A stretch of DNA of 64,000 nucleotides, from positions 7,162-71,161 of the forward strand of contig CAZQCC010000004.1 of the NCBI GenBank assembly GCA_964592055.1, in the 5' to 3' direction. Below are positions 4,233 to 59,556 of this stretch, piece by piece (position 1 is the stretch's first letter; each line of letters opens with the position of its first letter). This DNA is from an uncultured Ignavibacterium sp. (GTDB lineage Bacteria > Bacteroidota > Ignavibacteria > Ignavibacteriales > Ignavibacteriaceae). The position numbers and the translations under genes were made by a program. The notes under the pieces are model-generated. The model ran no database searches and had not been told where the DNA came from. It worked only from the letters and a program-made list of their open reading frames with translations.

Positions 4233-5042
4233 TCAATGACGAATATGAACATCTCTCTGTGGAAATGGAATGGAGATATTCTCTTCATCAAACTTTTTCT
4301 TTACCTGTTCTATTAACCTGAACCTGGTTTCAAGGAACTTTTGGTTCAAGACCCACGGTCTTACAAAAATGTTTACAGAGCTGTTTGCCAATTCTCCAAC
4401 AGCAATAGTTGCCGCCGGTTCTTTCAAAACATCCGGGTCATCATCAATTATCGAATGAAGTATTGACTTGGCTTTATCAATATCGTCTTCATAACTAATT
4501 CCAAAAACGAGATCAATTCTGCGGGTTTCTTTTTCAGAATAGTTAATTATGTTATCATTAATAAGCTTTGAGTTTGGAATGAAAATTACTTTGTTATCGA
4601 TTGTGATAAGAGTTGTGTTGAAGATCCCAACTTTTTCAACGGTTCCGCTTACACCACCGCTTTCAACAAACTGTCCTACTTTTATCTGTCTGAAGATAAT
4701 TAACATTACACCGGCTGCAACATTGGATAAAGAACCCTGCAATGCTAGTCCGATAGCTAACCCGGCAGCACCCAATGCAGCAATTAAAGATGTTGTTTCA
4801 ATTCCTAATCTTGAAACTGCCGCAATTATAACGAACAGGTATAAAGAGAACTTAAGCGCACTTGTTAAAAATCCAACTAGTGTTACATCAACATTTCTTT
4901 TATTGAGTACTTTCCTTAATAATTTTGTTAGAGATTTTGCAATCCAGAATCCGATAACTAAAATTGCAATTGCAGAAACAATCTGAACACCGAAATCGGT
5001 GATGTATTTTTTTAACTCGGGTAATAGTTCTTTCCAATCCAT
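4233..5042 (-). CDS. mscS: Small-conductance mechanosensitive channel (MscS family)
   Basis: Three N-terminal TM helices are followed by GTVEKVGIFNTTLITIDNKVIFIPNSKL, a typical MscS beta-domain signature. Length is 269 aa. Confidence 0.75.
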   Translation of the reverse strand: MDWKELLPELKKYITDFGVQIVSAIAILVIGFWIAKSLTKLLRKVLNKRNVDVTLVGFLTSALKFSLYLFVIIAAVSRLGIETTSLIAALGAAGLAIGLALQGSLSNVAAGVMLIIFRQIKVGQFVESGGVSGTVEKVGIFNTTLITIDNKVIFIPNSKLINDNIINYSEKETRRIDLVFGISYEDDIDKAKSILHSIIDDDPDVLKEPAATIAVGELANSSVNIFVRPWVLNQKFLETRFRLIEQVKKKFDEENISIPFPQRDVHIRH

Positions 5043-8284: not shown

Positions 8285-10285
8285 ATGAAAAAATCAATAC
8301 TTCTGTTCTTCTTTCTGGTTACTGTTGGAACAATGCTCAGCTTTGCTCAAACAGTTACATTAAGCACATATGGTGTAGCACCATATGATGTTTCAGTTGA
8401 CACTCTAGAACAATATTTCGATAGACCATATAACGGACTAAAGAATGTTGGAGTGAATACTAAAGTCTATTTAAAAGTAAAATCTACTTTGGCTTTTACT
8501 AACCCAACCTGGGAGGTAATTGAAAAACCAACCGGTTCAACTGTTCAATTTGGTAATGCAAAAGTAATCGATACTTCTAATCAGATCATTACTTTTATTC
8601 CTGATCTAGCGGGAACCTATAAAGTTAAGGTAACAGTTGATACAAAAACAGCTGAAATGGTTTTTAATGCCGCTCTTTATTGGGGAGTTGAAGGCGGACC
8701 GGTTTCATGTAAAACCTGCCATCAAAATACTATCAATAATATTCCTGATCTTTACAATGCATGGGTGAACACCAATCATGCTATTGATACCAAAAAAGGA
8801 CTTGATGGAGAACTTAGTAGTCACTTCCAGGAATTTTGTTTAGCTTGCCACTCCACGGGCTACGATCCTGATGCTGATAATGGTGGTTTTGATGATTTTC
8901 CATTTGTATTCCCATCTGTTTTACAGCCGGGAACCTACAACCAGATGGTTGCACTTTATCCTGATGCAATGGCAAGAGCAAATGTACAGTGTGAAGCCTG
9001 CCACGGTCCAGGAAGCAATCACTTAAGCCAGATAGATAATGCTAAGATCGATGTTACACTATCTTCAGATGTTTGTGCATATTGCCATAAAGAAGGTTCA
9101 CATCATAATATACCATTACAATGGGATCTTTCTGTTCATGGAGCTGGAACTCATTTATATTCTGGTGCCAGCAGATACACCTGTACACCTTGCCATAATG
9201 GTCAGGGATTTGTTGATTTTGTAAAAGGTGATCCTCAAAGCGTTCAGGTTAACATTGCAATTACTTGCGCAACCTGCCATGATCCTCATTATGCAACAAA
9301 TGCACATCAATTAAGAACTGTTACAGCTACCATGAAAAACGGATTAGTAGTTGATAATGCTGGTAATGGCGGCCTTTGTTTGAATTGTCACCAATCAAGA
9401 CAAAACGCTGTTCCATTCGTAGAGAATTATTTAGTGGCATTAAATTCCAGATTCGGTCCTCATCATGGTCCTCAGGGAGATATGCTGATTGGAACAAATG
9501 CATATACATGGGGCGAAACACTTGATCAGTCACCACACTTTGCAGCTATCGAAGATGCTTGTGTTGGCTGCCATATGTACGAAAATAATAACCCACTTAA
9601 TTCAGAATTAAGCGTTGGAGGACATACGTTTAGTATGGTTAACAGTTTAGGTGAAGATAATGTTGAAGCCTGTGCAGATTGTCATGGTAACGTCGGTACA
9701 GATTTCGATCAGAAAAAACTATACATAAACGGCAGTGCTGATCTTGATAAAAATGGTGTTGCTGAAGGATTACAAATTGAAGTCGAAGGTCTGTTGCATC
9801 AGCTAGCAACTTTACTACCTCCTTACGGTTCACCGGATATTAATGTAATCGATTCATCCTGGACACTTGATGAAGCAGGTGCATTATATAATTACAGAAA
9901 TATTGAAGAAGACAGAAGCTTTGGTATGCATAATCCAAGATTTACTGTTGGTTTATTGTATCTTTCGATTGGTAAATTAGGTGGAACGGTTAGCATCGAT
10001 GATTTAAATTCTGAATTACCAAGCACATATGCTTTATCAAACAATTATCCTAACCCATTTAACCCAACAACCACTATCAATTTCTCAATTCCTGAGCAGA
10101 CCAATGTTAAAGTTATAATTTATGATGCACTTGGTAATCAGGTTGATGTAGTTGCAAATGAAGTTAAATCCGCTGGTAATTATAGTGTTAAATGGAATGC
10201 AGTAAATTATGCTTCGGGAATTTATTTCTACAAACTTGAAACTGATAATTTCGTCCAGGTTCGTAAGATGGTTCTTATGAAATAA
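8285..10285 (+). CDS. Nine-haem c-type cytochrome with a T9SS C-terminal sorting domain
   Basis: Signal peptide and 9 CXXCH motifs (CKTCH, CLACH, CEACH, CAYCH, CTPCH, CATCH, CLNCH, CVGCH, CADCH). The C-terminus reads NYPNPFNPTTTINFSIP...GIYFYKLETDNFVQVRKMVLMK. Confidence 0.85.
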   Translation: MKKSILLFFFLVTVGTMLSFAQTVTLSTYGVAPYDVSVDTLEQYFDRPYNGLKNVGVNTKVYLKVKSTLAFTNPTWEVIEKPTGSTVQFGNAKVIDTSNQIITFIPDLAGTYKVKVTVDTKTAEMVFNAALYWGVEGGPVSCKTCHQNTINNIPDLYNAWVNTNHAIDTKKGLDGELSSHFQEFCLACHSTGYDPDADNGGFDDFPFVFPSVLQPGTYNQMVALYPDAMARANVQCEACHGPGSNHLSQIDNAKIDVTLSSDVCAYCHKEGSHHNIPLQWDLSVHGAGTHLYSGASRYTCTPCHNGQGFVDFVKGDPQSVQVNIAITCATCHDPHYATNAHQLRTVTATMKNGLVVDNAGNGGLCLNCHQSRQNAVPFVENYLVALNSRFGPHHGPQGDMLIGTNAYTWGETLDQSPHFAAIEDACVGCHMYENNNPLNSELSVGGHTFSMVNSLGEDNVEACADCHGNVGTDFDQKKLYINGSADLDKNGVAEGLQIEVEGLLHQLATLLPPYGSPDINVIDSSWTLDEAGALYNYRNIEEDRSFGMHNPRFTVGLLYLSIGKLGGTVSIDDLNSELPSTYALSNNYPNPFNPTTTINFSIPEQTNVKVIIYDALGNQVDVVANEVKSAGNYSVKWNAVNYASGIYFYKLETDNFVQVRKMVLMK

Positions 10286-49679: not shown

Positions 49680-49694
49680 TATATCACCTTTATT

Positions 49695-49771
49695 TTGTCA
49701 TCCCGAACTTGCTTCGGGATTTATTCCAAAATGGATACTGAACCTGCTTTTCTGCCGACAGGCAGGTTCAG
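49695..49771 (+). repeat. Bipartite hairpin element, copy 2
   Basis: TTGTC-ATCCCGAA-CTTGC-TTCGGGAT, then 17 nt, then CTGAACCTGC...CAGGCAGG..TTCAG. It lies between the two vWA genes. Confidence 0.6.
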
Positions 49772-49782
49772 CGTGATTCAAT

Positions 49783-50910
49783 TTATTTTTCAAATTTATA
49801 GTTCTTTTGTTTAGCTTGTTCACGGATCGTATTAATCATAACAGCATCAAGTGTACTATCATTTTTATTCTCTAGCATTTTCTGTGCTACATATTTACTT
49901 CGTTCTTCATTAAGCTTATTAATTTTATTCTGAATCTTTTCACGTTCTTTACTCATTTTATCAACATAAGCTTTTCGTTCTTCCTTACTCATCTTTTTCA
50001 TTTCATCGGGCAATTCTTCATCCTTTAATTCTTCAATTTTCACCGATCCATCTTTTTTAGCATCAACAAGATCCCAAGTGGAGTTTCTATATTGTCCGCC
50101 AGACTTAGTTACTGATCTTTGGACCATTACCTCATTACTTAAGCTCATAGAATTTGCATCCTGTTCCGCCTGCAGTTCCTTTTTTTCTCTGCCATTATTT
50201 CCAAATGCTATGTATGTTTTATTTAGTTCCTGTCCGAGTTTTATAATTTCGTCGTCTTGTGGAGCATCAATATGAACAATCTCTGCGTTGTGATCAATGT
50301 TCATATACTTGCCATCAGAAATATCGGCACCATCTTTCCACATTGTTTGTATACCCTCATCATAGTTACCACAGAAGATTGTATTTACCACGATTCCATT
50401 CTTTACAGCTTTTTTACATGCATTCTTATAATCAACATCACCTTGAGTAAATGGTTCGTTTCCTGCAATAAAAATAATTTTTAAATCATCATTTGATTTT
50501 TTCCATTGAAGATTGTTTACAGCATCAAGAATAACTTTTCCACAATATTCCTGTCCACCATTAGTTTTAAGCTTAAATAGTTCGTCTGAAATTTTATCGA
50601 GGTCCTGAGTAAATGGAACAATGTTTCTCAAATGTCCTTCTTGAGATGGAATAGCATCTTTCCCATATTCGTATAAGGCTACAAAGAGTTCAACATTCTT
50701 ACCATTTTTCCTGGAAGTGGCAAGTTCATTAACAATTTTCCATAACTGACTCTTGGCCTGATCAATTAAACCATCCATACTATTGCTTGTATCCAGCAAC
50801 AAAGCAAGTTGGATGGAATGATTTTTTGTGAACTTTGTATCAGGAATATGATTTGAAAATGTGTTGTTAGATAGGGCAGTGATTAAAATTAGAGCAACAA
50901 AGTATTTCAT
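49783..50910 (-). CDS. Secreted vWA domain protein with a Lys/Glu-rich coiled-coil tail
   Basis: MIDAS LLLDTSNSMDG. The C-terminus reads EELPDEMKKMSKEERKAYVDKMSKEREKIQNKINKLNEERSKYV. Confidence 0.65.
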   Translation of the reverse strand: MKYFVALILITALSNNTFSNHIPDTKFTKNHSIQLALLLDTSNSMDGLIDQAKSQLWKIVNELATSRKNGKNVELFVALYEYGKDAIPSQEGHLRNIVPFTQDLDKISDELFKLKTNGGQEYCGKVILDAVNNLQWKKSNDDLKIIFIAGNEPFTQGDVDYKNACKKAVKNGIVVNTIFCGNYDEGIQTMWKDGADISDGKYMNIDHNAEIVHIDAPQDDEIIKLGQELNKTYIAFGNNGREKKELQAEQDANSMSLSNEVMVQRSVTKSGGQYRNSTWDLVDAKKDGSVKIEELKDEELPDEMKKMSKEERKAYVDKMSKEREKIQNKINKLNEERSKYVAQKMLENKNDSTLDAVMINTIREQAKQKNYKFEK

Positions 50911-51020: not shown

Positions 51021-51764
51021 CTATTCTATATCAAAATTAAAATAAGTTTTTGGAAATGGTTCATTCTTCAAAGTAAAATGCCACCATTCTTCAGGCAAGT
51101 TTTTGAAACCATATCTTTCCATAAGGCTCACCAGCAATAGTCTGTTGCTTCTTTGCTGGTCCGAAAGATTTGGATTTTCAGTGTGTGATAATTCGTTAAA
51201 GCAGTCAAATCCCGTTCCCATATCAATGCTGTTATCTCTAAATCTTTCATCTTTTGATTTGTAACATTCGCATTGATTATTCAATTCAAATTCTGGTTGA
51301 GAAGGTATGGGAAGTGGAACAATGGTCAAATCAATTGTACTGCCACGACTATGTCCGGATTTTTCTGCGATGAAACCATCAATAAATAATTTACTTTTAT
51401 CAATAGTAGGATAAAATTCTTTTTTCGTAATTGTATCAGCTAAATCTTTTGCCCAACGAACAAAATGATCAACTGCTTTTTGCGGTCTATAGGCGTCATA
51501 AACTTTTAGTGTAAAACCAAATCTGTTTATTTCTTTTTGAACTTTTAATAGTGAATCAGCGGCAGCTTGAGTAATGTAACATTTTTCTGATTTATAACCA
51601 TCAACCGTAACGCCAAGAAAGTTATGATTTGTTAAGTATCTTAAATCAAGGATGATATCGGGTATAACCTCACGAATTTCGACAAACCCATTTGGAATAT
51701 TTTGAGCACTAAGCTGACCAGGAATCGAAAAAAAAATTAGAAATAATATTAGTATTCTTTTCAT
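51021..51764 (-). CDS. D-alanyl-D-alanine dipeptidase (M15D, VanX/DdpX type) with a signal peptide
   Basis: YDAYRPQKAV, SGHSRGSTIDLT and EEWWHF motifs. N-terminal signal MKRILILFLIFFSIPGQLSAQ. Confidence 0.75.
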   Translation of the reverse strand: MKRILILFLIFFSIPGQLSAQNIPNGFVEIREVIPDIILDLRYLTNHNFLGVTVDGYKSEKCYITQAAADSLLKVQKEINRFGFTLKVYDAYRPQKAVDHFVRWAKDLADTITKKEFYPTIDKSKLFIDGFIAEKSGHSRGSTIDLTIVPLPIPSQPEFELNNQCECYKSKDERFRDNSIDMGTGFDCFNELSHTENPNLSDQQRSNRLLLVSLMERYGFKNLPEEWWHFTLKNEPFPKTYFNFDIE

Positions 51765-51778
51765 CTGTTAAGACTTAC

Positions 51779-53287
51779 TCATTCGGTTTTCCAATGGCAA
51801 TCGGTGCAAAGTTGCAATTGTTCGGCTTTATCAAGATCAATGGGATGCTGAAATTTCAATCCATCAAGATCGATCCTGGTTATACCTTCACCATCAGTTT
51901 GAGAGATAATTTTGTGGCAACTGTTACAATCATTCGAGATAACTTTCCCATCATCACTTATGTGGTTTCCGTCATGACACCTAAAACATCCCGGTGTATA
52001 AACATGTGAAATATTGTCGGGAAATTGTTTCCAGTTTGCATTCATATATGGAAAATAATTTCTTGAGTAAATCGATTGCACTACCTTGATGCTTTGATCG
52101 ATTGATTGTTTTTTTGAAGCATAAATTTCCGGGTAATTGGAATTGTAAAAGTCATTTATTCTTTGATGAATAGTTTCTAATGCGTGCTGTTTGGTTGAAT
52201 ATTTATCTTCAAGAACTTCAACAGAAATGCTTTTTATGAATGGTATAGATTCATCCACATTACCACTTGCCATCATTTGATTCATCATTTTATCAGGTTG
52301 ATGATAAATATGGGATGGCCGATTATGACAATCGATACAATCCATTGTCCTTAAATTTTCTTTGTTAAAATTCTTTTCATCAAACTTTGCTTTTTTATTT
52401 CTAAAAATTGTTTCTTTACCATCCTTCGAAACAACTTTTACCCAAGGTATTTCAAGTCTGCGTTCATCAGTATGAACGTATGTAATAATGTTATCCGGAT
52501 TCGCATGCCAGTGTACTCCTTCGATTGCGCCTAGCTCACTCTTACCGCCACCAATCTTTATCAGCATGCTCAATTTTGATTTCGTGTTATTTTCATCGGA
52601 GATATAATACGTATAATCAACCTTCTTTTCATTAAAGAAGTGAGAAGGTGTATGGCACTGTTCACACGTACCTTCTGCAGGTCTTAATGCATGAACCGGA
52701 GTTGGTATTGGACGTGAGTATTTGTTAAACAAAACCGAATAAACCTGATACGCTCCTGAAAATTTTGATTTAACATACCAGCTTGTTCCCGAACCAATAT
52801 GGCAACCAACGCAACCAACTCGTGAATGAGGTGAATCCAAGTAAGCAGTATATTCCGGTTCCATAACCTGGTGGCAAATGGTTCCGCAAAACTCGTCTGT
52901 TTCTGTGTACTCATAGGCCTTAAAGCTGCCGAAAGCGGAAAATAACATCAATACTATTGTTCCGACTGAGAAGGTAACAAACATTGCTCTTTTCTTTGGA
53001 TCGTTTAAATCGATTACCGGAAGACTTTGTGATCGGAGTTTCCCTTGCTTTTCTCTTTTCCTTTCGCGAATTATACCATAGGCTATTAGTAATAATCCAA
53101 CTATCAGGATTGAAGGGAGTATTATATACGTCAGAATCCCCATATATGTATTCTCATCGCTGCTGAAAATATCCAGTATGAAAAGAAAGAGAATTAATCC
53201 AAAACTTAAAATTGCAATGCCTGCACCAGTAAGTGTAATTGGATTATAAACGTAGTGGGGAAAAATTTTTCTCATATAATTCCTCAA
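51779..53287 (-). CDS. Inner-membrane 7-haem c-type cytochrome, ImcH-like architecture
   Basis: Three N-terminal TM helices, then CGTICH (CX3CH) plus CVGCH, CEQCH, CIDCH, CFRCH, CNSCH and CTDCH. Length is 502 aa. Confidence 0.75.
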   Translation of the reverse strand: MRNYMRKIFPHYVYNPITLTGAGIAILSFGLILFLFILDIFSSDENTYMGILTYIILPSILIVGLLLIAYGIIRERKREKQGKLRSQSLPVIDLNDPKKRAMFVTFSVGTIVLMLFSAFGSFKAYEYTETDEFCGTICHQVMEPEYTAYLDSPHSRVGCVGCHIGSGTSWYVKSKFSGAYQVYSVLFNKYSRPIPTPVHALRPAEGTCEQCHTPSHFFNEKKVDYTYYISDENNTKSKLSMLIKIGGGKSELGAIEGVHWHANPDNIITYVHTDERRLEIPWVKVVSKDGKETIFRNKKAKFDEKNFNKENLRTMDCIDCHNRPSHIYHQPDKMMNQMMASGNVDESIPFIKSISVEVLEDKYSTKQHALETIHQRINDFYNSNYPEIYASKKQSIDQSIKVVQSIYSRNYFPYMNANWKQFPDNISHVYTPGCFRCHDGNHISDDGKVISNDCNSCHKIISQTDGEGITRIDLDGLKFQHPIDLDKAEQLQLCTDCHWKTE

Positions 53288-53344
53288 TTCTTATTTAAGG
53301 AAAAGAAAGATGATATTTAATAAAGAATTTAAGTAAAGCTAAGA

Positions 53345-55549
53345 TTAAACTTCATCTGAACTTTCTTCAGATTTCATTCTTTCTTCAGCTTGTTTTCTTT
53401 TAATTCTTTCAAGTTCAAGCGGATGTTCTTCAGCCATTTCTTCTTCGGTAACGGTACCTTTAAACCAGGCCAAGCTCATCGGGTAAACATCAGGATTAAA
53501 GATTACAAAGTAGAAATGCCAAATGACTATAGCAAGAAACGCTAACCAGGCTTCATAGTAATGAATTGTTCTGGCAATATCCCAATCTAGTTTTGAGAAT
53601 ACGCCTATGTAATCAATATATATCCACATTAACAAACCAGTAACAGTCATTACTATTGTTCCCCAAACTAAAGCCCAATACTCAGCTTTTTCTACATAAC
53701 TAAATCTATCAAGTTTTGGTTTCTCTTTTGATAACCCAAGATTAAATTTTGCAATACCTATTGCATCAGTAAAATCTTTTAGAGTAGGGAACAGATCCTT
53801 AACTAATTGTCTTCCTCTTTGGGTAAATGCAATGTAGTAGATGTGGTAAAAGCTAACCAAAATCATTGCAATTGCAGCAATTCTGTGTATCCAACTTCGA
53901 TATTCAACAGCATCTGGCCAAATATCTCTAATGTGAGATACCCACCAAGATTCCGGATATCTTAACATAAATCCTGTTAGTACTAAAATCATAAAACTGA
54001 TTGCCATTGTAGCGTGTTGAATTCGCTCATTAACAGTCATTCTAAGATATAGAGCATGCCCATGTTTCTCTTCTCTAATATGGCCTAGCTGTTTTAACTT
54101 TTTAATCTTAGACTTTTTAATAAGATCAAATAGATTATGAAGGAACATGCCGCCAAGAATTGAAAAGAGTAAAGAAATGTAAATTGTGGAAATCCAATAA
54201 AGAATTGGCTCATCATCTTTTTCTAGAGTAACGTGAATGGTTCCCTTTGTAAATGTTTCATTAGCCCCCGGATGACAGGAACCGCAAGTCTTCACCAAGT
54301 TATCCTTGTGGATCATTGATGTTGGATCTGAAGACGGTTTGATGTTGTGAACACCATGACAACTACCGCAATTTGCAACTGTTGCTGATCCACCACTCAA
54401 TGCTAATCCATGATATGATTCAGAAAAAGTTTTATATCTATTTGCGGACATTCCATACTTTTCTGAAAGGGCAACAGATTCATGACAAGGCGAACATATC
54501 TCCCTTGATACATTCTGAAACGCAACTGGTGAATTAGGATCATCAGCGCGTAAAATGTTATGTTCACCATGGCAGTTTGTGCAAGAAGGAGCGTCTCCGT
54601 TGCCTTTTGCTACCAACTGACCATGAATACTTTCTGAAAATTCACTCTGAATAGCACTATGGCACTTTCCGCAAGTGTTAGGGATATTTAATCTGTTAAC
54701 AGTTGAGCGGGAATCCGTACCTTTTAAAACATTGTGTGATTCGTGACAGTCAATACAGCTAGCTGCATCTCCATTTTTTTCAATGTGAAGCGCCAAACCA
54801 TGTACGCTCTTATCATAAGCATGTATAAATCCTGTAGAAGGAGTAGTTCTGTTTTTTACATCTTCATCATCCAGATGGCAGGATAAACAAAGTTTTTCCT
54901 GAGCGATCTTTTTATCAACAATCTTATCCCCAAATGCTGATCTTGTTATTGGAGATTTATGGCAGCTAATACAATTGGGTGCAAATTTATCCCCATTCTT
55001 AAAAGCAATACCATGATTTGAATTAACAAAATGTTCTGTAGCTTCTTTATGGCAATAACCACAAGATGAAATTAAATTGGTCTGGTTCCACTTGCTGCGT
55101 GAGCTGTTTACTTTCATAACATCGTGGATACCATGGCAGCTTTTACAAGATGTATCCTGCGTTTTTCCCAAACCCTTTGATTTAATTATCTGAGGGTGAA
55201 AGGAATGCTTGGTAAGATCTTTCTGATGACAGCTGACGCACTTAACATCCTGAATATTTTCAGCGTGGGGCATCGCTTCAGCATCGAAACCTTTATGGCA
55301 AGCAATACAATTTAATTTAGAATGAGAAGAACTTTTGTATACATTTTCATCAACGAACAGGGAAATTTCTTTCCCTTTTTTTTCCATAGTGAGTTCGTTA
55401 TCACTATGGCACATTAAACAGTCATCATTCGATTGAGCATATATTTTTGGGGGTAGAATAACTAATCCGATTACAAGGAGGGTTTGTATAAATTTTAAGA
55501 TGTTTGGGAAGCATCTTAATTTCTCGTATGATGATGATTTAAGTGCCAT
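53345..55549 (-). CDS. Fusion of a 13-haem periplasmic cytochrome c domain with an FdnI/HydC/PhsC-type dihaem cytochrome b membrane domain (CbcL-like)
   Basis: Signal peptide and 13 CXXCH motifs in residues about 44-430. Five TM helices follow, with conserved His (IQHATM, HRIAAIAM, FYHIYY, TIHYYEAW, WHFYF). Confidence 0.8.
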   Translation of the reverse strand: MALKSSSYEKLRCFPNILKFIQTLLVIGLVILPPKIYAQSNDDCLMCHSDNELTMEKKGKEISLFVDENVYKSSSHSKLNCIACHKGFDAEAMPHAENIQDVKCVSCHQKDLTKHSFHPQIIKSKGLGKTQDTSCKSCHGIHDVMKVNSSRSKWNQTNLISSCGYCHKEATEHFVNSNHGIAFKNGDKFAPNCISCHKSPITRSAFGDKIVDKKIAQEKLCLSCHLDDEDVKNRTTPSTGFIHAYDKSVHGLALHIEKNGDAASCIDCHESHNVLKGTDSRSTVNRLNIPNTCGKCHSAIQSEFSESIHGQLVAKGNGDAPSCTNCHGEHNILRADDPNSPVAFQNVSREICSPCHESVALSEKYGMSANRYKTFSESYHGLALSGGSATVANCGSCHGVHNIKPSSDPTSMIHKDNLVKTCGSCHPGANETFTKGTIHVTLEKDDEPILYWISTIYISLLFSILGGMFLHNLFDLIKKSKIKKLKQLGHIREEKHGHALYLRMTVNERIQHATMAISFMILVLTGFMLRYPESWWVSHIRDIWPDAVEYRSWIHRIAAIAMILVSFYHIYYIAFTQRGRQLVKDLFPTLKDFTDAIGIAKFNLGLSKEKPKLDRFSYVEKAEYWALVWGTIVMTVTGLLMWIYIDYIGVFSKLDWDIARTIHYYEAWLAFLAIVIWHFYFVIFNPDVYPMSLAWFKGTVTEEEMAEEHPLELERIKRKQAEERMKSEESSDEV

Positions 55550-55570
55550 AGTTGATAAACTTAAACCTAA

Positions 55571-55912
55571 TTATTCACCTTTAAGCGTTAATAACCAATC
55601 AACTAAAACTTTAAGATCTTCGTCGCTTCCTTTAAAGGATGATTTATGATCTTTATCGTTTAACTTAGCTTCTTTTTTCAAATATTTTGTTAAGAATTCT
55701 GCAGTCTTATCTTTTCCAACAGCAGAAAGATCTGAAGCATCAGATTTCTTTGATTCTATACCTGCTGATTGAACTGTATGACACATCTGGCATTTGTTGT
55801 CAACAAAAATTTTCTTGCCATCATCGCTTTTCTGATCTGCGATCGTATATGCAAAACCATATAGAGCAACTATGGTCACGATTAAACCAAGATAAATCAA
55901 TACGTTTTTCAT
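55571..55912 (-). CDS. Membrane-anchored monohaem cytochrome c
   Basis: N-terminal hydrophobic anchor and a single CQMCH. Length is 113 aa. Confidence 0.7.
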   Translation of the reverse strand: MKNVLIYLGLIVTIVALYGFAYTIADQKSDDGKKIFVDNKCQMCHTVQSAGIESKKSDASDLSAVGKDKTAEFLTKYLKKEAKLNDKDHKSSFKGSDEDLKVLVDWLLTLKGE

Positions 55913-55966: not shown

Positions 55967-55981
55967 ACAATTACAGTACCA
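55967..55981 (-). promoter_or_regulatory. Weak sigma54-like -24/-12 candidate (TGGTAC-N5-TTGT)
   Basis: The minus strand reads TGGTACTGTAATTGT with GG-N10-GT spacing. It sits 54 nt upstream of the ATG at 55912. The -12 GC is imperfect. Confidence 0.2.
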
Positions 55982-56180
55982 CAACTTTTATTACATTATT
56001 TGCTAAAAATCCAATATTTTTATCGTTCAGATTTGATAGAATTCTCAGCTTTGGGAAGCATTTTTCTTTCAATTTCGCATGAATTGGAATAATAATTTAA
56101 CATTTGTTTACTATCAATATTTACTGCAGTTTGTGTTCATTTGGACACATCATTGAACTGAATTAACTACAATTTAGTGA

Positions 56181-56540
56181 TTAATTTGCTGGAAGTAAAA
56201 TAGGAATTTTTGATGAGATTTCGTTGAGATCAAATGGCTTGTAAAAAATCTCATTTACAAATTTTTTAATTTTATTTTCCGATCCCATGATGTTGTTATT
56301 GAATACGTAAGTAAGGATAAGGGGAAGATCGCCTTTGCATTTCTTGATATTTTCACACATCAGCAATATCTCAGAGCTAGGTTCGGTATCTAAGATAACC
56401 AGATCGGCCGAATTACTACATACCAATGAAGAAACCACATCTAAATCAGTAGTTGCTACAACTTTATACTGCGTCTGTAGATACATCAACAGACTATAGC
56501 ATAAACTAAAATCGGGGCTGTAGATTACTATGTTTTTCAT
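56181..56540 (-). CDS. Stand-alone receiver-like (REC) domain protein with a degenerate acidic pocket
   Basis: 119 aa. ADLVILDTEP carries the phospho-acceptor-position Asp and YKPF the conserved Lys. The N-terminal DD/DE pair is replaced by IVIYSPD. Confidence 0.5.
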   Translation of the reverse strand: MKNIVIYSPDFSLCYSLLMYLQTQYKVVATTDLDVVSSLVCSNSADLVILDTEPSSEILLMCENIKKCKGDLPLILTYVFNNNIMGSENKIKKFVNEIFYKPFDLNEISSKIPILLPAN

Positions 56541-56587: not shown

Positions 56588-56602
56588 ACTATTTATGTGC
56601 CA
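56588..56602 (-). promoter_or_regulatory. Sigma54-like candidate with a perfect -24 box (TGGCAC-N5-TAGT)
   Basis: The minus strand reads TGGCACATAAATAGT, about 48 nt upstream of the ATG at 56540. The -12 element is poor. Confidence 0.2.
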
Positions 56603-56763
56603 GAGTTGATAAATAGTAAATATTGCGGGTAATCAGTAGTTTTTCAATTAAAAATCAAAGGAATATAGATTAGACATTCTCGCTAATGGCAATGTTAAAA
56701 ACCCCATTTTAATAATTGAGAATAAGTCTAAATAGTGGTTTGAAAGTCTGCGGTGGATCAGAC

Positions 56764-58119
56764 TCAAATTTTGATGTCTAATTCCTTCAGTTTTCTGTAT
56801 AGTGTTGATAAACCAACTCTTAATGCATCTGCAGTTTTTTCTTTGTTATTATCATTGGTTTCAAGTGCCCGAAGAATGTAATCCCGTTCAAATTTCCTTA
56901 CTGATTCATCAAGAGAGCCATTGAACGAGAAATCATAATCGTCTGTCTTTGGTTTAAATGAAACAGGTAACTCCTGAATTGTTATCATATCGGTTTTACA
57001 AAAAATTACTGCTCTTTCAATAATATTTTCTAGCTCACGAACTTCACCTTTCCACTCATGGTTTAATATTGCTCTCATCGCTTCATTATCAATTCCCTTA
57101 ATGTTTTTGTTTAATTCTTTACGATATTTATTAAGGAAATGATCTGCTAATAAGGGTATATCCTCTTCACGTTCCTTTAATGATGGCAGATGAATATCAA
57201 CTACATTTATTCTATAGAACAGATCTTCTCTAAATCTTCCGGCTTTTACTTCTTCTTCCAAATTGCGATTAGTTGTGGTAATGAATCTGGCATTAACCGG
57301 TAGAGAAATAGTTGTTCCAACAGGAGTATATTCTTTTTCTTGTATAGCTCTCAACAATTTAACCTGCAGCTGCGGTGGCATTTCACTTATCTCATCTAAA
57401 AATAATGTACCGCCATTTGCAGCTTTCATAAATCCGTCTTTATCGGAAATAGCGCCAGTAAAAGCTCCTTTTTTGTGTCCAAACAGTTCACTTTCAATCA
57501 GGTTTTCTGAAATTGCTCCGCAATTAACCGCAATGAATGGCTTATTTTTTCTGTTACTCTTATAGTGTAAGGCACGGGCAACTAATTCCTTTCCTGTTCC
57601 ACTGTTTCCGCTAATGAGAACAGTTGAATCTGTTTCAGCAACTGCATCAATCATCTCATAGATTTTTTTTATGCTTGTACTTTTACCAACTATATTTTCA
57701 AAATCGTATTGTCTGTGTATCTCTTCACGAAGTACCTTGTTTTCTGTTAACAGATCTTTAATTTCAAAAAGGCGTTTTGCTTTTATTAATAATTCATCAA
57801 ATTCAACCGGTTTAAGAATATAATCGCTGGCTCCATTTCTGAGTGCACTAATGGCTGTATCCAATGAGCCAAAAGCAGTAATAATGATCACAGAAGTCTG
57901 GAAGTCTATGGTCTTGATTTTTTCAAGAAGCTCAGTACCTTTCATCAATGGCATTTCAATATCTGTTATTACAAGATCGTAATGATTAGCGATAATTTTT
58001 TCTAATGCGATCTTACCATTTTCAGCTTTATCAACCTGGTATCCTTCCTTTTCAAGTATGTAGAATAGGGAATCTCTGATTATTTCTTCATCATCAACAA
58101 CTAAAATTTTATGAGCCAT
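56764..58119 (-). CDS. Sigma54-dependent response regulator (NtrC family: REC, AAA+, Fis-type HTH)
   Basis: ILVVDDE...LVITDIEMP receiver, Walker A GNSGTGKE, ESELFGH plus the GAFTGA sigma54-contact loop, and a C-terminal HTH. Confidence 0.9.
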   Translation of the reverse strand: MAHKILVVDDEEIIRDSLFYILEKEGYQVDKAENGKIALEKIIANHYDLVITDIEMPLMKGTELLEKIKTIDFQTSVIIITAFGSLDTAISALRNGASDYILKPVEFDELLIKAKRLFEIKDLLTENKVLREEIHRQYDFENIVGKSTSIKKIYEMIDAVAETDSTVLISGNSGTGKELVARALHYKSNRKNKPFIAVNCGAISENLIESELFGHKKGAFTGAISDKDGFMKAANGGTLFLDEISEMPPQLQVKLLRAIQEKEYTPVGTTISLPVNARFITTTNRNLEEEVKAGRFREDLFYRINVVDIHLPSLKEREEDIPLLADHFLNKYRKELNKNIKGIDNEAMRAILNHEWKGEVRELENIIERAVIFCKTDMITIQELPVSFKPKTDDYDFSFNGSLDESVRKFERDYILRALETNDNNKEKTADALRVGLSTLYRKLKELDIKI

Positions 58120-58131
58120 TTTTATCCTGAT

Positions 58132-59556
58132 TTAATTAATAGGTAACTTAATTATGAATGATGTTCCTTCATTCAACTTACTTTTTATTTTTATATCCCC
58201 CTGAAAGCTTTTTACTATTCCATAGCTTACCCATAAGCCTAAACCTGTTCCTTTTCCTTCTTTTTTTGTTGTAAAAAATGGTTCAAAGACTTTATTAAGC
58301 TTGTCCTCCTTAATCCCTATTCCAGTATCAGAAAAAGTTAAAATTACTTCGTTATCTGTACTTTCAGATTTTACAGTGATCTTTTCAACTTTATTGTTTC
58401 TTCGTTTTTCAATAATAGCATCAACCGAGTTTAGCAAGATATTAACAAATACTTGTTGTATCTGATCCGCAATTAAAGGAAGAGGTGGAATGTTCGGGCT
58501 AAGAATTGATTCAAATACAATATCCTGTGCTTTAGTTCCAACTCTAGTTATTTCAACAGCCTCGTTAATAACTTTATTAATATCTGTTAACTCTAACTCA
58601 TAATTTGATGGTCTGGAAAAATCAACGAGATCTCTGATAATTTTAGAAATCCTGGTAACCTGGCTCTTGACCAATCCTAATTTTTCATTCACAAAAGGAT
58701 CAGTAGTAATTCTTTGAGCAACTTGTACTAAAGCAGATATCGATGCCAGCGGATTTCCAACTTCGTGTGCTATCCCTGCAGCTAAGGTACCAATGCTTTC
58801 CATTTTTTGTGTGTGGATCAACTGTCTTTCCAGGGTTCTCTTTTCGGTTAAGTCACGGTGAATTCCAAAATATCCTGAGACTTTGCCATCTTTATCTAAT
58901 ATTGGAGAGACTAGAAGTTGTGTAAAAAACGGTTCACCACTTTTTTTGAGATTTTCTACCTCACCAACCCAAACTTTACCGCTAGAGATCGTATCCCACA
59001 TTTTGTCCCAAAATTTTGTTGAGTTTTTCCCACTTCCAAAAATATTAGGATTCTTACCAATCAATTCTTCTTTTGAATATCCGCTGGCATTTTCAAAAGC
59101 TCTGTTTATGTAAATCATTTTTCCGTTTAGATCAGTTATTTGTAATGGATTCACACTATTCTCAGCAACGTTAAAGAATCTAATAAGATCAATTTCTTTC
59201 TTTTTCTCCCCACTTATATCCCTCGCAGTTACAAGCGTTAGTTTTTCTTTGAATCCTTTACTTTCAAAAGGGACAAATGCTAGTTTTACGTTTATAAAAT
59301 TCTTATTAAAGAACAGTCTTGTTTCTATTTCTCTGGCTTTGCCGGTTTTTATAGATTTGTTAAATAAGTTTTGCGTTTCATTTCTATCGCAAAGCTCAAC
59401 ATAATCAAAAAATATATCGGTCTGGCCATTCTTGATTTCTAATTTTTCACTCGAGACCTTATTAAAGAATCTAATATCTCCTGTATCATTTATTAGAAAA
59501 CACATGTCCGGAAAACCATCAAAAAGAGAAAAATCAAGTGTAATATTTTCGTTCAT
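58132..59556 (-). CDS. Cytoplasmic PAS-domain sensor histidine kinase
   Basis: No TM segments and two PAS-like regions. H-box AAGIAHEVGNPL, with N/G boxes in the HATPase_c domain (DTGIGI, GKGTGLGL). Confidence 0.85.
   Translation of the reverse strand: MNENITLDFSLFDGFPDMCFLINDTGDIRFFNKVSSEKLEIKNGQTDIFFDYVELCDRNETQNLFNKSIKTGKAREIETRLFFNKNFINVKLAFVPFESKGFKEKLTLVTARDISGEKKKEIDLIRFFNVAENSVNPLQITDLNGKMIYINRAFENASGYSKEELIGKNPNIFGSGKNSTKFWDKMWDTISSGKVWVGEVENLKKSGEPFFTQLLVSPILDKDGKVSGYFGIHRDLTEKRTLERQLIHTQKMESIGTLAAGIAHEVGNPLASISALVQVAQRITTDPFVNEKLGLVKSQVTRISKIIRDLVDFSRPSNYELELTDINKVINEAVEITRVGTKAQDIVFESILSPNIPPLPLIADQIQQVFVNILLNSVDAIIEKRRNNKVEKITVKSESTDNEVILTFSDTGIGIKEDKLNKVFEPFFTTKKEGKGTGLGLWVSYGIVKSFQGDIKIKSKLNEGTSFIIKLPIN

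What the first reader, a model, noticed from the sequence alone, without database searches (positions are those of the whole stretch)
51779..55912. One operon combines a CbcL-like 13-haem/cytochrome-b fusion, an ImcH-like 7-haem membrane cytochrome and a monohaem cytochrome c
Seen in sequence: three co-directional minus-strand ORFs are separated by only 21 and 57 nt.
- ORF 55571-55912 has a membrane anchor and one CQMCH.
- ORF 53345-55549 (734 aa) has a signal peptide and 13 CXXCH motifs: CLMCH, CIACH, CVSCH, CKSCH, CGYCH, CISCH, CLSCH, CIDCH, CGKCH, CTNCH, CSPCH and CGSCH twice.
- The same ORF then has five TM helices carrying the His pattern of FdnI/HydC/PhsC dihaem cytochrome b.
- ORF 51779-53287 (502 aa) has three N-terminal TM helices, six CXXCH motifs and one atypical CX3CH (CGTICH).

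Established knowledge: Geobacter sulfurreducens CbcL is a multihaem c domain fused to a HydC/FdnI-type cytochrome b. ImcH has up to 3 TM helices, a NapC/NirT-like region and up to 7 haem motifs. In Geobacter the two genes are unlinked and serve different acceptor redox-potential windows.

Inference: both quinol-oxidase architectures appear here in one transcription unit of an FCB-type genome, with a small cytochrome c as a possible periplasmic shuttle. That would be a compact inner-membrane entry module for extracellular or high-molecular-weight electron acceptors. I cannot tell from the sequence alone whether this arrangement has been described before.
Basis: partly seen in the sequence, partly recalled or inferred. 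Interest (0 to 1): 0.8.

Follow-up and report, generated by a model that had tools for sequence, protein, structure and literature searches.

The report
Ignavibacterial ImcH–CbcL-type quinol cytochrome operon

Summary
Three co-directional minus-strand ORFs encode a monohaem cytochrome c, a 734-aa protein with 13 CXXCH motifs fused to an FdnI-type dihaem cytochrome b, and an ImcH-architecture protein with 3 TM helices, one CX3CH and six CXXCH.

The ImcH-like gene more likely starts at ATG 53275, giving 498 aa.

The family assignments hold, by architecture and profile matches rather than by direct comparison with the Geobacter proteins, whose sequences I could not obtain.

The arrangement is not special. 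In 71 ImcH-anchored loci from other genomes, 55 carry a multihaem-c/cytochrome-b fusion upstream on the same strand. These loci come from Ignavibacteriota, Bacteroidota, Acidobacteriota, Binatia, KSB1, Calditrichota and Dadabacteria. Published tables already list adjacent locus tags for CbcL and ImcH homologues in Desulfuromonadales relatives.

What is specific to this clade is a conserved PAS kinase, NtrC-type sigma-54 activator and small receiver upstream. Conserved sigma-54-like promoters and palindromic upstream sites lie before the receiver gene and before the cytochrome operon.

Most likely function: a regulated module exchanging electrons between menaquinol and periplasmic cytochromes, feeding extracellular-type respiration. 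Direction and physiological acceptor are unproven.

This is a new member of known kinds, of moderate interest.

The parts
58132..59556 (-). Soluble PAS histidine kinase (474 aa), first gene of the conserved regulatory block
   Evidence: Pfam PAS_9/PAS, HisKA and HATPase_c. The orthologue sits in the same position in L001-L005, L008 and L016.
56764..58119 (-). NtrC-type response regulator and sigma-54 enhancer-binding protein (REC, AAA+ sigma-54 interaction domain, Fis-type HTH)
   Evidence: Pfam Sigma54_activat E=2.9e-71, Response_reg E=4.7e-31, HTH_8. Orthologues are 70-86% identical and syntenic in L001-L005 and L008.
56677..56722 (-). Candidate activator-binding half-sites (TTCTCA ... CGAGAA) upstream of the small receiver gene
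   Evidence: ATTCTCA and CGAGAAT elements are conserved in the orthologous intergenic regions of L001, L002, L003 and L008; only one half-site is recognisable in L004 and L005. Function is inferred.
56588..56602 (-). Sigma-54-like promoter TGGCAC-N5-TAGT ahead of the receiver gene
   Evidence: TGGCA(C/T)-N5-T.G is conserved in the same place in L001-L005 and L008. It is one of only 4 matches to TGGYAY-N5-TWGH in the whole window on both strands.
56181..56540 (-). Stand-alone receiver protein (119 aa)
   Evidence: Weak Pfam Response_reg match (E=9e-4). An Asp, a Thr and a Lys-Pro are conserved across 8 orthologues at the motifs LVILD, LTYV and FYKPF, the expected receiver positions.
56042..56089 (-). 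Two candidate enhancer sites, TTCCAA-N4-TGCGAA (56074-56089) and TTCCCA-N4-TGAGAA (56042-56057), about 60-120 nt upstream of the promoter
   Evidence: The palindrome TTC(C/T)CA-N4-(T/C)GAGAA and the TGCGAA element are recognisable, in partly degenerate form, at the same positions in L001-L005. L001 reads CTTCTCAAAGATGAGAAG. Binding is inferred.
55967..55981 (-). Sigma-54-like promoter TGGTAC-N5-TTGT, 55 nt upstream of the monohaem cytochrome c start codon
   Evidence: TGGTA(T/C)-N5-TTG(T/A) is conserved upstream of the operon in L001-L005 and L008, about 45-70 nt before the ATG of the cytochrome c gene in L001-L005. L016 has TGGCAT-N5-TTGA before its c-b gene. The window match is listed. The -12 element is GT, not the canonical GC.
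55571..55912 (-). Monohaem class-I-like cytochrome c (113 aa) with an N-terminal signal peptide or anchor
   Evidence: CQMCH at residue 41. Pfam Cytochrom_C E=2.3e-8. It has no Met outside the CQMCH motif; a conserved His in the KDHK[ST][SA]FKG stretch suggests bis-His ligation.
53345..55549 (-). CbcL/MtoC-architecture protein: signal peptide, 13-haem periplasmic c domain, one linker TM helix, then a 4-helix FdnI-type dihaem cytochrome b
   Evidence: The haem spacing next to the membrane is 30/29/42/28, against 29/28/43/28 in GSU0274.
51779..53275 (-). ImcH-family menaquinol dehydrogenase (498 aa from ATG 53275; the mechanical ORF runs to TTG 53287)
   Evidence: It carries every invariant residue of a 33-sequence family alignment: the CX3CH, M142, H154, the six CXXCH, H259, H326, H428 and H481.
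51021..51764 (-). VanX-like D-Ala-D-Ala dipeptidase, 14 nt downstream. Possibly co-transcribed, but not part of the conserved module
   Evidence: Pfam Peptidase_M15 E=3e-37. It is present after imcH only in L003 among the relatives. No terminator-like site lies between the genes.
8285..10285 (+). Candidate distal partner: 9-haem MtrC/MtrF-like cytochrome with a type-9-secretion sorting tail. Association is weak (about 42 kb away)
   Evidence: Pfam PF22113 and Por_Secre_tail. It is homologous (E down to 1e-76) to a multihaem family that sits inside the c-b/ImcH islands of at least 16 related loci.

Best explanation
Identity. The region is a sigma-54-dependent operon of an Ignavibacteriaceae genome. 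It encodes an inner-membrane module that exchanges electrons between the menaquinone pool and periplasmic multihaem cytochromes.

Proposed mechanism (steps 1-2 shown at sequence level, steps 3-6 inferred):
1. A cytoplasmic PAS kinase phosphorylates the adjacent NtrC-type activator.
2. The activator binds tandem TTCYCA-N4-TGAGAA sites and opens a TGGTAC-N5-TTGT promoter. One transcript covers the monohaem c gene, the 13-haem c-b gene and the ImcH-like gene.
3. The ImcH-like protein oxidises menaquinol at an NrfH-type site on the periplasmic face, next to its first (CX3CH) haem. It passes electrons along seven haems.
4. The c-b fusion uses an FdnI-type dihaem b domain, whose quinone site lies near the cytoplasmic-side haem. 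It moves electrons across the membrane into its 13-haem periplasmic chain.
5. The two proteins therefore give two routes out of the quinone pool with different energetic cost, as ImcH and CbcL do in Geobacter sulfurreducens.
6. The small cytochrome c and outer cytochromes, such as the type-9-secreted 9-haem protein elsewhere in the window, carry electrons onward to extracellular or high-molecular-weight acceptors.

Context. The pair is one instance of a widespread conserved gene pair, not a unique invention.
For: Shown:
- ORFs, haem motifs and TM helices.
- NapC/NirT/NrfH homology of the ImcH-like core. Pfam PF03264 E=1.8e-11; family profile against NrfH 2J7A_C E=1.7e-11. M142 aligns to the Met of the NrfH CXXCHxM motif, and K175 aligns to a Lys that I take to be NrfH Lys82.
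- Motif-for-motif agreement with GSU3259 in published Table S3.
- FdnI homology of the b domain, with four His on the FdnI ligand-bearing stretches.
- CbcL-like haem spacing next to the membrane.
- The c-b/ImcH pair occurs in 55 of 71 informative genome loci over several phyla.
- The two proteins' pairwise identities are correlated (r=0.84, Mantel 0/2000).
- Synteny of kinase, sigma-54 activator, receiver, cytochrome c, c-b and ImcH in L001-L005.
- Conserved promoter-like and palindromic elements.
- No terminator-like site inside the unit.

Context for an extracellular role:
- Related loci embed the pair among a predicted outer-membrane barrel (no Pfam match), 5- to 14-haem cytochromes, Rieske/cytochrome b, CbcBA-like pairs and 10-haem MtrA-like proteins.
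- The window itself encodes a type-9-secreted 9-haem cytochrome of that set.

From the literature:
- ImcH and CbcL are menaquinol oxidases for high- and low-potential acceptors (PMC4251993; bioRxiv 10.1101/2023.05.03.539133).
- cbcBA in Geobacter is sigma-54/BccR dependent (bioRxiv 10.1101/2021.04.15.440034).
Against: - No expression, biochemical or genetic data exist for this organism.
- I could not compare the proteins directly with GSU0274 or GSU3259, because those sequences were not retrievable here.
- The 13-haem subtype is absent from the published CbcL/MtoC/MtrH list. It also lacks the sixth TM helix predicted for GSU0274.
- The promoters have GT or GA rather than GC at -12.
- The direction of electron flow is not determined by sequence. 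FdnI itself, and MtoC as proposed, work as quinone reductases.
- No outer-membrane conduit gene is adjacent in this window; the candidate is about 42 kb away.
- Anchored on the c-b fusion, only about 22 of 53 metagenome loci have ImcH downstream, so the two are not obligate partners.
- AF2 confidence is mediocre: mean pLDDT 67.5 for the c-b fusion and 61.7 for the ImcH-like protein.
Confidence: 0.68

Rival explanations
1. Electron-uptake or redox-loop module. The c-b fusion works in the FdnI/MtoC direction. It takes electrons from reduced periplasmic or extracellular donors such as Fe(II), reduced humics or a partner cell, and reduces menaquinone at the cytoplasmic face. The ImcH-like protein re-oxidises menaquinol at the periplasmic face towards a higher-potential acceptor. 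Together they form a proton-motive redox loop.
For: - The b domain aligns over its full length to FdnI, a quinone reductase with a cytoplasmic-side quinone site.
- CbcL/MtoC/MtrH homologues occur in Fe(II) oxidisers and are proposed to work as quinone reductases there (PMC6295460).
- ImcH releases protons and electrons on the periplasmic side (bioRxiv 10.1101/2023.05.03.539133).
- Tight and often overlapping gene pairs (gaps of -4, -11 or 0 nt in many loci) and correlated divergence fit a functional couple.
Against: - In G. sulfurreducens both proteins act as independent quinol oxidases with separable phenotypes, and the genes are unlinked (PMC4251993).
- Extra genes are inserted between the pair in many loci.
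- Only about 40% of c-b loci have ImcH downstream.
- Correlated divergence is expected for any two genes inherited together.
Confidence: 0.15
2. Quinol dehydrogenases that serve a dedicated soluble periplasmic reductase (nitrite, sulfite, tetrathionate, TMAO/DMSO, arsenate), in the manner of NrfH, NapC, TorC or CymA, and not extracellular respiration.
For: - The best curated-model hits of the ImcH-like protein are NrfH (TIGR03153, 52 bits) and NapC/NirT.
- Public annotation calls it 'NapC/NirT family cytochrome c'.
- CymA-type proteins are promiscuous.
Against: - All those hits are far below the curated cut-offs (52 against 134 bits for NrfH; 16 against 311 for NapC).
- The architecture is 3 TM and 7 haems, not 1 TM and 4-5 haems.
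- No NrfA, Otr, HAO, MccA or molybdoenzyme gene lies next to the operon in the window, and the window holds no other haem protein except the 9-haem secreted one.
- The recurrent neighbours in the 80 related loci are cytochromes, b subunits, barrels and regulators; no reductase family recurred, though I did not search for reductases specifically.
- Profile matches to NrfA or MccA in the PDB are weak, partial haem-motif matches.
Confidence: 0.1
3. The three genes are neighbours but not one functional unit. They would be separately transcribed cytochromes with unrelated roles, and the sigma-54-like elements would be chance matches.
For: - The gaps of 21 and 69 nt could hold internal promoters.
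- Promoter types of this phylum are poorly covered by the scan.
- The -12 element is non-canonical.
- The cytochrome c gene is truncated in L008, and other genes are inserted between c-b and imcH in many loci.
Against: - The same gene order recurs in independent genomes at 56-79% protein identity.
- The promoter-like element and the palindromes are conserved in position and orientation in 6-8 orthologous intergenic regions whose flanking sequence has diverged.
- Only 4 matches to the degenerate motif occur in 64 kb on both strands. Two of them sit in these two intergenic regions, next to a sigma-54 activator gene.
- No terminator-like site was found.
Confidence: 0.07

Closest known systems
ImcH (GSU3259) of Geobacter sulfurreducens and the ImcH family of Levar et al. 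2014 / Zhong & Shi 2018
   Same: - Three N-terminal TM helices.
- First haem motif CX3CH directly after TM3, then six CXXCH with nearly identical spacing, and about 500 aa.
- NapC/NirT/NrfH-like core.
- Ignavibacterial homologues of 496-498 aa are already listed as ImcH homologues.
   Different: - imcH is monocistronic and constitutive in G. sulfurreducens. Here the gene is last in a three-gene unit behind a sigma-54-type promoter with its own two-component system.
- Published identities between Geobacter ImcH and other phyla are only 31-49%. The identity of this protein to GSU3259 was not measured.
CbcL (GSU0274) and the CbcL/MtoC/MtrH family
   Same: - Periplasmic multihaem c domain fused to a HydC/FdnI-type dihaem b domain.
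- The haem spacing next to the membrane (30/29/42/28, then about 30 residues to TM1) matches CbcL (29/28/43/28, then 28) better than it matches the MtoC or 19-haem subtypes.
   Different: - 13 haems instead of 9, and five TM helices instead of the six predicted for GSU0274.
- This 13-haem, roughly 730-aa subtype is not in the 2018 catalogue, and neither is its 11-haem acidobacterial sister.
- Two extra invariant membrane histidines (H471, H569) have no counterpart in FdnI.
CbcBA and its regulator BccR of G. sulfurreducens
   Same: - A bc-type quinol oxidoreductase operon behind a sigma-54 promoter, controlled by a neighbouring NtrC-family response regulator, with a further response regulator encoded in the unit.
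- CbcBA-like pairs (a 7-haem c with a C-terminal TM helix, plus Ni_hydr_CYTB) sit next to imcH in Bacteroidota loci L042, L059, L074, L075 and L078.
   Different: - Here the regulated genes are the ImcH- and CbcL-type ones, which are constitutive and BccR-independent in Geobacter.
- The regulator is co-directional rather than divergent, and a dedicated PAS kinase is adjacent.
NrfH / NapC / CymA tetrahaem quinol dehydrogenases
   Same: - The quinol-oxidising core: a TM helix followed by the haem-1 motif with a conserved Met, and a Lys aligning to the one I take to be NrfH Lys82.
   Different: - Three TM helices, seven haems and CX3CH.
- Scores are far below the curated cut-offs.
- No catalytic partner gene is present.
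FdnI, the gamma subunit of E. coli formate dehydrogenase-N (1KQF chain C)
   Same: - Four-helix dihaem b fold with the four ligand histidines in register.
   Different: - It is fused to a 13-haem cytochrome c through an extra TM helix.
- No FdnG or FdnH genes are present. The database name 'cytochrome b subunit of formate dehydrogenase' is misleading.

Membership tests
ImcH family | Three N-terminal transmembrane helices | tested here: met
   Hydropathy peaks at residues 23-41, 55-73 and 101-119. AF2 helices at 16-41, 47-80 and 97-129. GSU3259 has 13-35, 45-67 and 100-122.
ImcH family | Atypical CX3CH first haem motif next to TM3, followed by six CXXCH with family-typical spacing | tested here: met
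   CGTICH at 134, then CXXCH at 159, 208, 317, 434, 454 and 494. The spacing matches Table S3 of PMC6295460 for GSU3259 and for ignavibacterial homologues. All motifs are invariant in the 33-sequence alignment A1.
ImcH family | Region of NapC/NirT/NrfH homology covering TM3 and the first haems | tested here: met
   Pfam PF03264 E=1.8e-11 over residues 100-191. Profile A1 against NrfH 2J7A_C gives E=1.7e-11.
ImcH family | Significant direct sequence similarity to GSU3259 | not testable with these tools
   The GSU3259 sequence was not retrievable. Indirect support: the query has 720 relatives (50% clusters) at E<=1e-30, all aligned end to end. Ignavibacterial proteins of the same length and motif layout are in the published ImcH list.
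ImcH family | Required for reduction of high-potential extracellular acceptors | not testable with these tools
   This needs genetics or electrochemistry.
CbcL/MtoC/MtrH family | N-terminal periplasmic multihaem c-type domain behind a signal peptide | tested here: met
   13 CXXCH between residues 44 and 426, with a signal-like N-terminus. The published family ranges from 3 to 23 haems; CbcL itself has 9.
CbcL/MtoC/MtrH family | C-terminal HydC/FdnI-type dihaem cytochrome b membrane domain with conserved ligand histidines | tested here: met
   PF01292 E=5e-16. TIGR01583 (FdnI) gives 54.5 bits, below its cut-off. The profile matches 1KQF_C at E=1.5e-11, with H512/H555/H663/H678 on the FdnI ligand-bearing stretches; the FdnI numbering H18/H57/H155/H169 is from my own knowledge. 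Foldseek matches 1KQF_C with probability 1.0 and TM-score 0.63.
CbcL/MtoC/MtrH family | Six predicted TM helices, as in GSU0274 | tested here: not met
   There are five helices. The C-terminal TM present in the 19-haem relatives and predicted for GSU0274 is absent. The published list also contains a few 4- and 5-TM members, so this feature is typical rather than defining.
CbcL/MtoC/MtrH family | Significant direct sequence similarity to GSU0274, or placement in its clade | not testable with these tools
Indirect support: the membrane-proximal haem spacing matches. The protein is 27-31% identical to 19-haem proteins whose motif layout equals listed family members. The 13-haem subtype itself is not in the 2018 list.
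NrfH/NapC/CymA dedicated quinol dehydrogenases | Single TM helix, 4-5 haems, score above the curated family cut-off, and a partner reductase gene adjacent | tested here: not met
   The protein has 3 TM helices and 7 haems. TIGR03153 scores 52.4 against a cut-off of 134.2. TIGR02161 scores 16.4 against 310.6. TorC scores 19 against 455. No reductase gene is adjacent.
Formate dehydrogenase-N / hydrogenase b subunit | Stand-alone b subunit encoded next to catalytic FdnGH or hydrogenase genes | tested here: not met
   The b domain is fused to a 13-haem c domain. The neighbours are cytochromes and regulators.
Sigma-54-dependent operon | -24 GG and -12 GC elements with canonical spacing, plus a cognate enhancer-binding protein | tested here: inconclusive
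   The GG and the TTG are present with the right spacing, and are conserved upstream of the operon in 6 orthologous loci, plus L016 before its c-b gene. The -12 dinucleotide is GT or GA, not GC. The activator gene is adjacent. No rpoN gene or transcript data were examined.

The most novel reading that the evidence does not exclude
The conserved c-b/ImcH pair may not be two alternative exits from the quinone pool. It could be a functional couple. The c-b protein has an FdnI-type quinone site at the cytoplasmic face. The ImcH-type protein has an NrfH-type quinol site at the periplasmic face. Together they would close a Mitchell redox loop, or form a Q-cycle-like supercomplex. That would let electron transfer between two periplasmic or extracellular redox pools generate proton-motive force. 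The two extra invariant membrane histidines (H471, H569) could bind a third b haem that serves this coupling.
Probability: 0.1. Interest if true: 0.75.

Novelty: new member of a known kind. Interest (0 to 1): 0.35.

Why it matters
ImcH and CbcL are the main gene markers used to predict extracellular electron transfer from metagenomes. In Geobacter sulfurreducens they define separate redox-potential 'gears'.

This window adds an ignavibacterial example and three modest points:
1. Outside G. sulfurreducens the two types are usually encoded side by side, across Ignavibacteriota, Bacteroidota and Acidobacteriota. Their co-occurrence in one locus could be a sharper marker than either gene alone.
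2. A 9-, 11- and 13-haem subtype of the c-b fusion, missing from the 2018 catalogue and annotated as 'formate dehydrogenase b subunit', is the usual partner.
3. In Ignavibacteriaceae the pair sits behind a sigma-54 promoter with its own PAS kinase and activator. Here the 'constitutive' Geobacter modules look inducible, which gives a handle for finding the signal.

None of this changes the current picture of how these proteins work.

Tried and rejected
- Single-sequence PDB searches gave only weak haem-motif hits. Profiles were needed.
- NCBIfam returned no hit to an ImcH- or CbcL-specific model. All its hits were below their cut-offs.
- I could not obtain GSU0274 or GSU3259. The genome scan returns only the best 80 loci (at least 42% identity), which excluded Geobacter. 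I used published motif tables instead.
- The AF2 model of the ImcH-like protein was too poor for a fold search: mean pLDDT 61.7, with the haem regions below 50.
- The c-b model gave only the FdnI match. The haem domain found nothing. The tools return no coordinates, so haem-chain continuity could not be measured.
- The sigma-70 and terminator scan was uninformative: fewer promoter-like sites than in shuffles, and no minus-strand terminator.
- A strict TGGC-N8-TGC search missed the promoters because the -12 element is non-canonical.
- Literature searches for an explicit description of a cbcL-imcH operon in Ignavibacteria, Acidobacteria or elsewhere found none. Adjacency is visible only in supplementary locus tags and in one figure reference.
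- I considered and rejected a dedicated nitrite, sulfite, tetrathionate or hydroxylamine reductase complex, and a true formate-dehydrogenase b subunit (see the rival explanations and membership tests).
- I considered obligate partnership. The reciprocal scan anchored on the c-b fusion argues against it.

Full report
**1. Observation**

The window has about 34% G+C. The three ORFs are on the minus strand as described.
- A script found one CQMCH in the 113-aa ORF.
- It found the 13 listed CXXCH in the 734-aa ORF.
- It found CGTICH plus six CXXCH in the 502-aa ORF.
- It also confirmed the hydrophobic segments and the 21- and 57-nt gaps.

Only four ORFs in the whole window carry any CXXCH.

One correction concerns the start of the third ORF. 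Its TTG start lies inside a GAGGAA ribosome-binding motif that precedes an ATG at 53275. The 498-aa product from that ATG has the length of almost all homologues. It is also present as that exact sequence in public collections.

**2. What the proteins are**

*The 498/502-aa protein.*
- Pfam gives NapC/NirT (PF03264, E=1.8e-11).
- NCBIfam gives NrfH, TorC and NapC models, all far below their cut-offs.
- The protein has 720 relatives (clusters at 50% identity) at E<=1e-30, aligned end to end.
- In a 33-sequence alignment down to 30% identity, the CX3CH, all six CXXCH and five further histidines are invariant. So are M142 and P144.
- The family profile matches NrfH (2J7A_C) at E=1.7e-11. M142 aligns to the Met of the NrfH CXXCHxM motif. 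K175 aligns to a Lys that I take to be NrfH Lys82.
- Table S3 of Zhong & Shi 2018 (PMC6295460) gives GSU3259 ImcH as 507 aa, with motifs at 132, 156, 205, 311, 428, 448 and 486 and TM helices at 13-35, 45-67 and 100-122. The window protein matches this almost position for position.
- Ignavibacterial proteins of 496-498 aa with the same layout are already listed there as ImcH homologues.

*The 734-aa protein.*
- Pfam gives cytochrome c7/c3-type repeats plus Ni_hydr_CYTB (E=5e-16). NCBIfam gives FdnI below its cut-off.
- A 19-sequence profile matches E. coli FdnI (1KQF_C) over its whole length at E=1.5e-11. H512, H555, H663 and H678 fall on the FdnI stretches that carry its four haem ligands.
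- The AF2 model (mean pLDDT 67.5) shows five TM helices.
- Foldseek against the PDB finds only FdnI.
- No catalytic multihaem enzyme gives more than partial haem-motif matches.
- Table S2 of the same paper lists GSU0274 CbcL as 619 aa with 9 haems. Its last spacings are 29/28/43/28, followed by TM1 after 28 residues. The window protein ends 30/29/42/28, followed by about 30 residues. This is closer than the MtoC or 19-haem subtypes.
- The 13-haem subtype itself is not in that list, and it lacks the sixth TM helix.
- I could not compare it directly with GSU0274.

*The 113-aa protein.* It is a class-I-like monohaem c. It has no methionine outside the haem motif. It has a conserved histidine in the KDHK[ST][SA]FKG stretch, which suggests bis-His ligation.

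**3. Organism**

The best named homologues of both large proteins are from Ignavibacteriales, Ignavibacteriaceae and Ignavibacterium, at 71-88% identity.

**4. Is the arrangement unusual? No.**

*Anchored on ImcH.* I used a diverse ImcH alignment to fetch 80 loci from species-representative genomes at 42-79% identity. Then I searched them with the window proteins.
- A multihaem-c/cytochrome-b fusion lies upstream on the same strand in 55 of the 71 loci that have enough upstream sequence.
- In 45 of them it lies within 600 nt.
- By phylum: 28 of 29 informative loci in Acidobacteriota, 13 of 13 in Ignavibacteria and 9 of 17 in Bacteroidota-labelled MAGs. Binatia, KSB1, Calditrichota and Dadabacteria also have it.
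- The fusion partner has 9, 11, 13 or 18-19 haems.
- Pairwise identities of the b domain and of the neighbouring ImcH are correlated (r=0.84, Mantel 0/2000). This shows inheritance as a unit, not physical interaction.

*Anchored on the c-b fusion.* The reciprocal scan of metagenome contigs is weaker.
- 22 of 53 informative loci have ImcH downstream.
- About ten more have it upstream or on the other strand.
- The pair is therefore common but not obligate.

*Published data.*
- The published tables already contain adjacent locus tags for CbcL and ImcH homologues:
  - Desulfuromonadaceae GWB2_53_15: A2X79_01190 and 01185.
  - Syntrophobacterales GWC2_56_13: A2X96_02390 and 02395.
  - Syntrophus GWC2_56_31: A2X92_08565 and 08560.
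  - Geobacteraceae GWB2_52_12: A2X80_11570 and 11560.
- In Desulfuromonas soudanensis the two genes are DSOUD_0207 and DSOUD_0214 (PMC4914508).
- I found no paper in the searchable library that states the pairing explicitly.

**5. Context in relatives**

A gene-cluster map of the 80 loci shows three recurring settings.
- *Ignavibacteria and Bacteroidota.* Many loci embed the pair in a large island, for example L015, L017, L023 and L032. The island holds:
  - a second, split 19-haem c plus a separate b subunit;
  - Rieske plus cytochrome b/b6 plus an 11-haem c;
  - a 4-haem c;
  - a predicted outer-membrane barrel (no Pfam match; the barrel call is my reading of the sequence);
  - 14-, 6- and 5-haem cytochromes;
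  - a CcsA/CcmF-type haem lyase.
- *Bacteroidota loci L042, L059, L074, L075 and L078.* These place a CbcBA-like pair next to imcH: a 7-haem c with a C-terminal TM helix, plus Ni_hydr_CYTB.
- *Acidobacterial loci.* These add Crp/Fnr regulators, a 10-haem MtrA-like protein and a barrel.

This is the gene content expected for electron transfer to the cell surface.

The window carries only the minimal trio. The genes downstream are a VanX-like dipeptidase, VWA/VIT proteins and an AbgT transporter, which are unrelated. About 42 kb away, however, it encodes a 9-haem MtrC/MtrF-like cytochrome with a type-9-secretion tail. That protein belongs to a multihaem family found inside those islands.

**6. 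Regulation**

Upstream in the window lie a soluble PAS histidine kinase, an NtrC-type sigma-54 activator and a small receiver. The same order occurs in L001-L005 (kinase, activator, receiver, monohaem c, 13-haem c-b, ImcH) and partly in L008, L016 and L037.

The orthologous intergenic regions have diverged but keep these elements:
- TGGTA(T/C)-N5-TTG(T/A), about 45-70 nt before the ATG of the cytochrome c gene in L001-L005. The window copy is at 55967-55981, 55 nt before the ATG.
- Two upstream sites of the form TTC(C/T)CA-N4-TG(A/C)GAA, at window 56042-56057 and 56074-56089.
- TGGCA(C/T)-N5-T.G before the receiver gene, at 56588-56602.

The degenerate motif has only four matches in the window on both strands. 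Two of them are these. The spacing and the GG/TTG elements fit sigma-54 promoters, but the -12 dinucleotide is GT or GA rather than GC.

No terminator-like site lies within the unit.

In G. sulfurreducens, imcH and cbcL are constitutive. Only cbcBA is sigma-54/BccR dependent (bioRxiv 10.1101/2021.04.15.440034). The ignavibacterial wiring resembles the cbcBA case.

**7. Mechanism**

Shown: the domain architectures, the conserved ligands and quinol-site residues, the synteny and the conserved non-coding elements.

Inferred from family knowledge:
- The ImcH-type protein oxidises menaquinol at the periplasmic face and is electroneutral (bioRxiv 10.1101/2023.05.03.539133).
- The FdnI-type b domain has its quinone site near the cytoplasmic haem. 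Quinol oxidation there sends electrons outward with the membrane potential and conserves less energy.
- Having both gives a high-yield route and a low-potential route.

Direction (oxidase or reductase), partner specificity and the physiological acceptor remain open.

**8. Verdict**

The suggestion that the combination is a distinctive invention is not. This is a new member of known kinds, within a widespread conserved gene pair.

It has a clade-specific regulatory block, and its c-b subtype is under-annotated. Public names for the two large proteins are 'formate dehydrogenase b subunit' and 'NapC/NirT family cytochrome c'.

The one more adventurous reading not excluded is that the pair works as a coupled redox loop, perhaps with a third b haem. 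I give that about 10%.

Noticed in passing
window 8285-10285 (+) and 6342-8021 (+): A 666-aa cytochrome with 9 haems, an MtrC/MtrF-like domain and a type-9-secretion C-terminal sorting domain. It is preceded by a Wzi-like outer-membrane beta-barrel gene. The cytochrome belongs to a multihaem family found inside the c-b/ImcH islands of at least 16 related loci. The barrel's homologue (54% identity) lies about 2 kb upstream of the kinase gene in L005.
   Followed up: partly
window 53345-55549 (-), residues H471 and H569: The c-b family has six invariant membrane histidines, not four. H471 (in the extra linker helix) and H569 (TM3) both sit in the cytoplasmic half and have no counterpart in FdnI. 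They could bind a third b haem or line the quinone site. Unexplained.
   Followed up: partly
window 55571-55912 (-): The monohaem cytochrome c has no methionine outside its CQMCH motif. It has a conserved histidine in a KDHK[ST][SA]FKG stretch, so it is probably bis-His ligated and low-potential, not a classical His/Met class I cytochrome.
   Followed up: partly
L008, about 4680-4760: In this relative the monohaem cytochrome c gene is reduced to a 25-codon remnant (MKNIVLYLLFVMSIVALFGFVFSMA, then a stop) behind the conserved promoter-like element. The small cytochrome is therefore dispensable in at least one lineage.
   Followed up: no
L042, L059, L074, L075, L078 (Bacteroidota): A CbcBA-like pair (a 7-haem c with a C-terminal TM helix, plus a 205-aa Ni_hydr_CYTB protein) and a DUF5777 beta-barrel lie directly next to the ImcH homologue. 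In L074 and L075 a 19-haem c-b fusion sits between them. All three Geobacter-type quinol oxidoreductase architectures then occur in one cluster.
   Followed up: partly
L007, L011, L015, L017, L019, L023, L032: A large island downstream of imcH: Rieske protein, cytochrome b/b6, 11-haem c, 4-haem c, a 438-aa predicted outer-membrane barrel with no Pfam match, 14-, 6- and 5-haem cytochromes, and a CcsA/CcmF-like haem lyase. Several of these loci also insert a 19-haem c plus a separate cytochrome b between the 13-haem fusion and imcH.
   Followed up: partly
window 53275-53287 (-): The mechanical ORF start (TTG 53287) lies inside the GAGGAA ribosome-binding motif of the more likely ATG start at 53275.
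   Followed up: yes
window 47487-50910 (-): Two secreted VWA-domain proteins lie downstream of the operon. One has a VIT domain and a sub-threshold resemblance to 'marine proteobacterial sortase target' proteins. They are not conserved next to the cytochromes in relatives.
   Followed up: no
PDB entry 28pb chain A, against residues of about 40-190 of the c-b fusion: The best solved-structure match to the N-terminal haem repeats is an unnamed 278-aa 'Cytochrome c' (E=4.8e-12). I did not identify its source or function.
   Followed up: no
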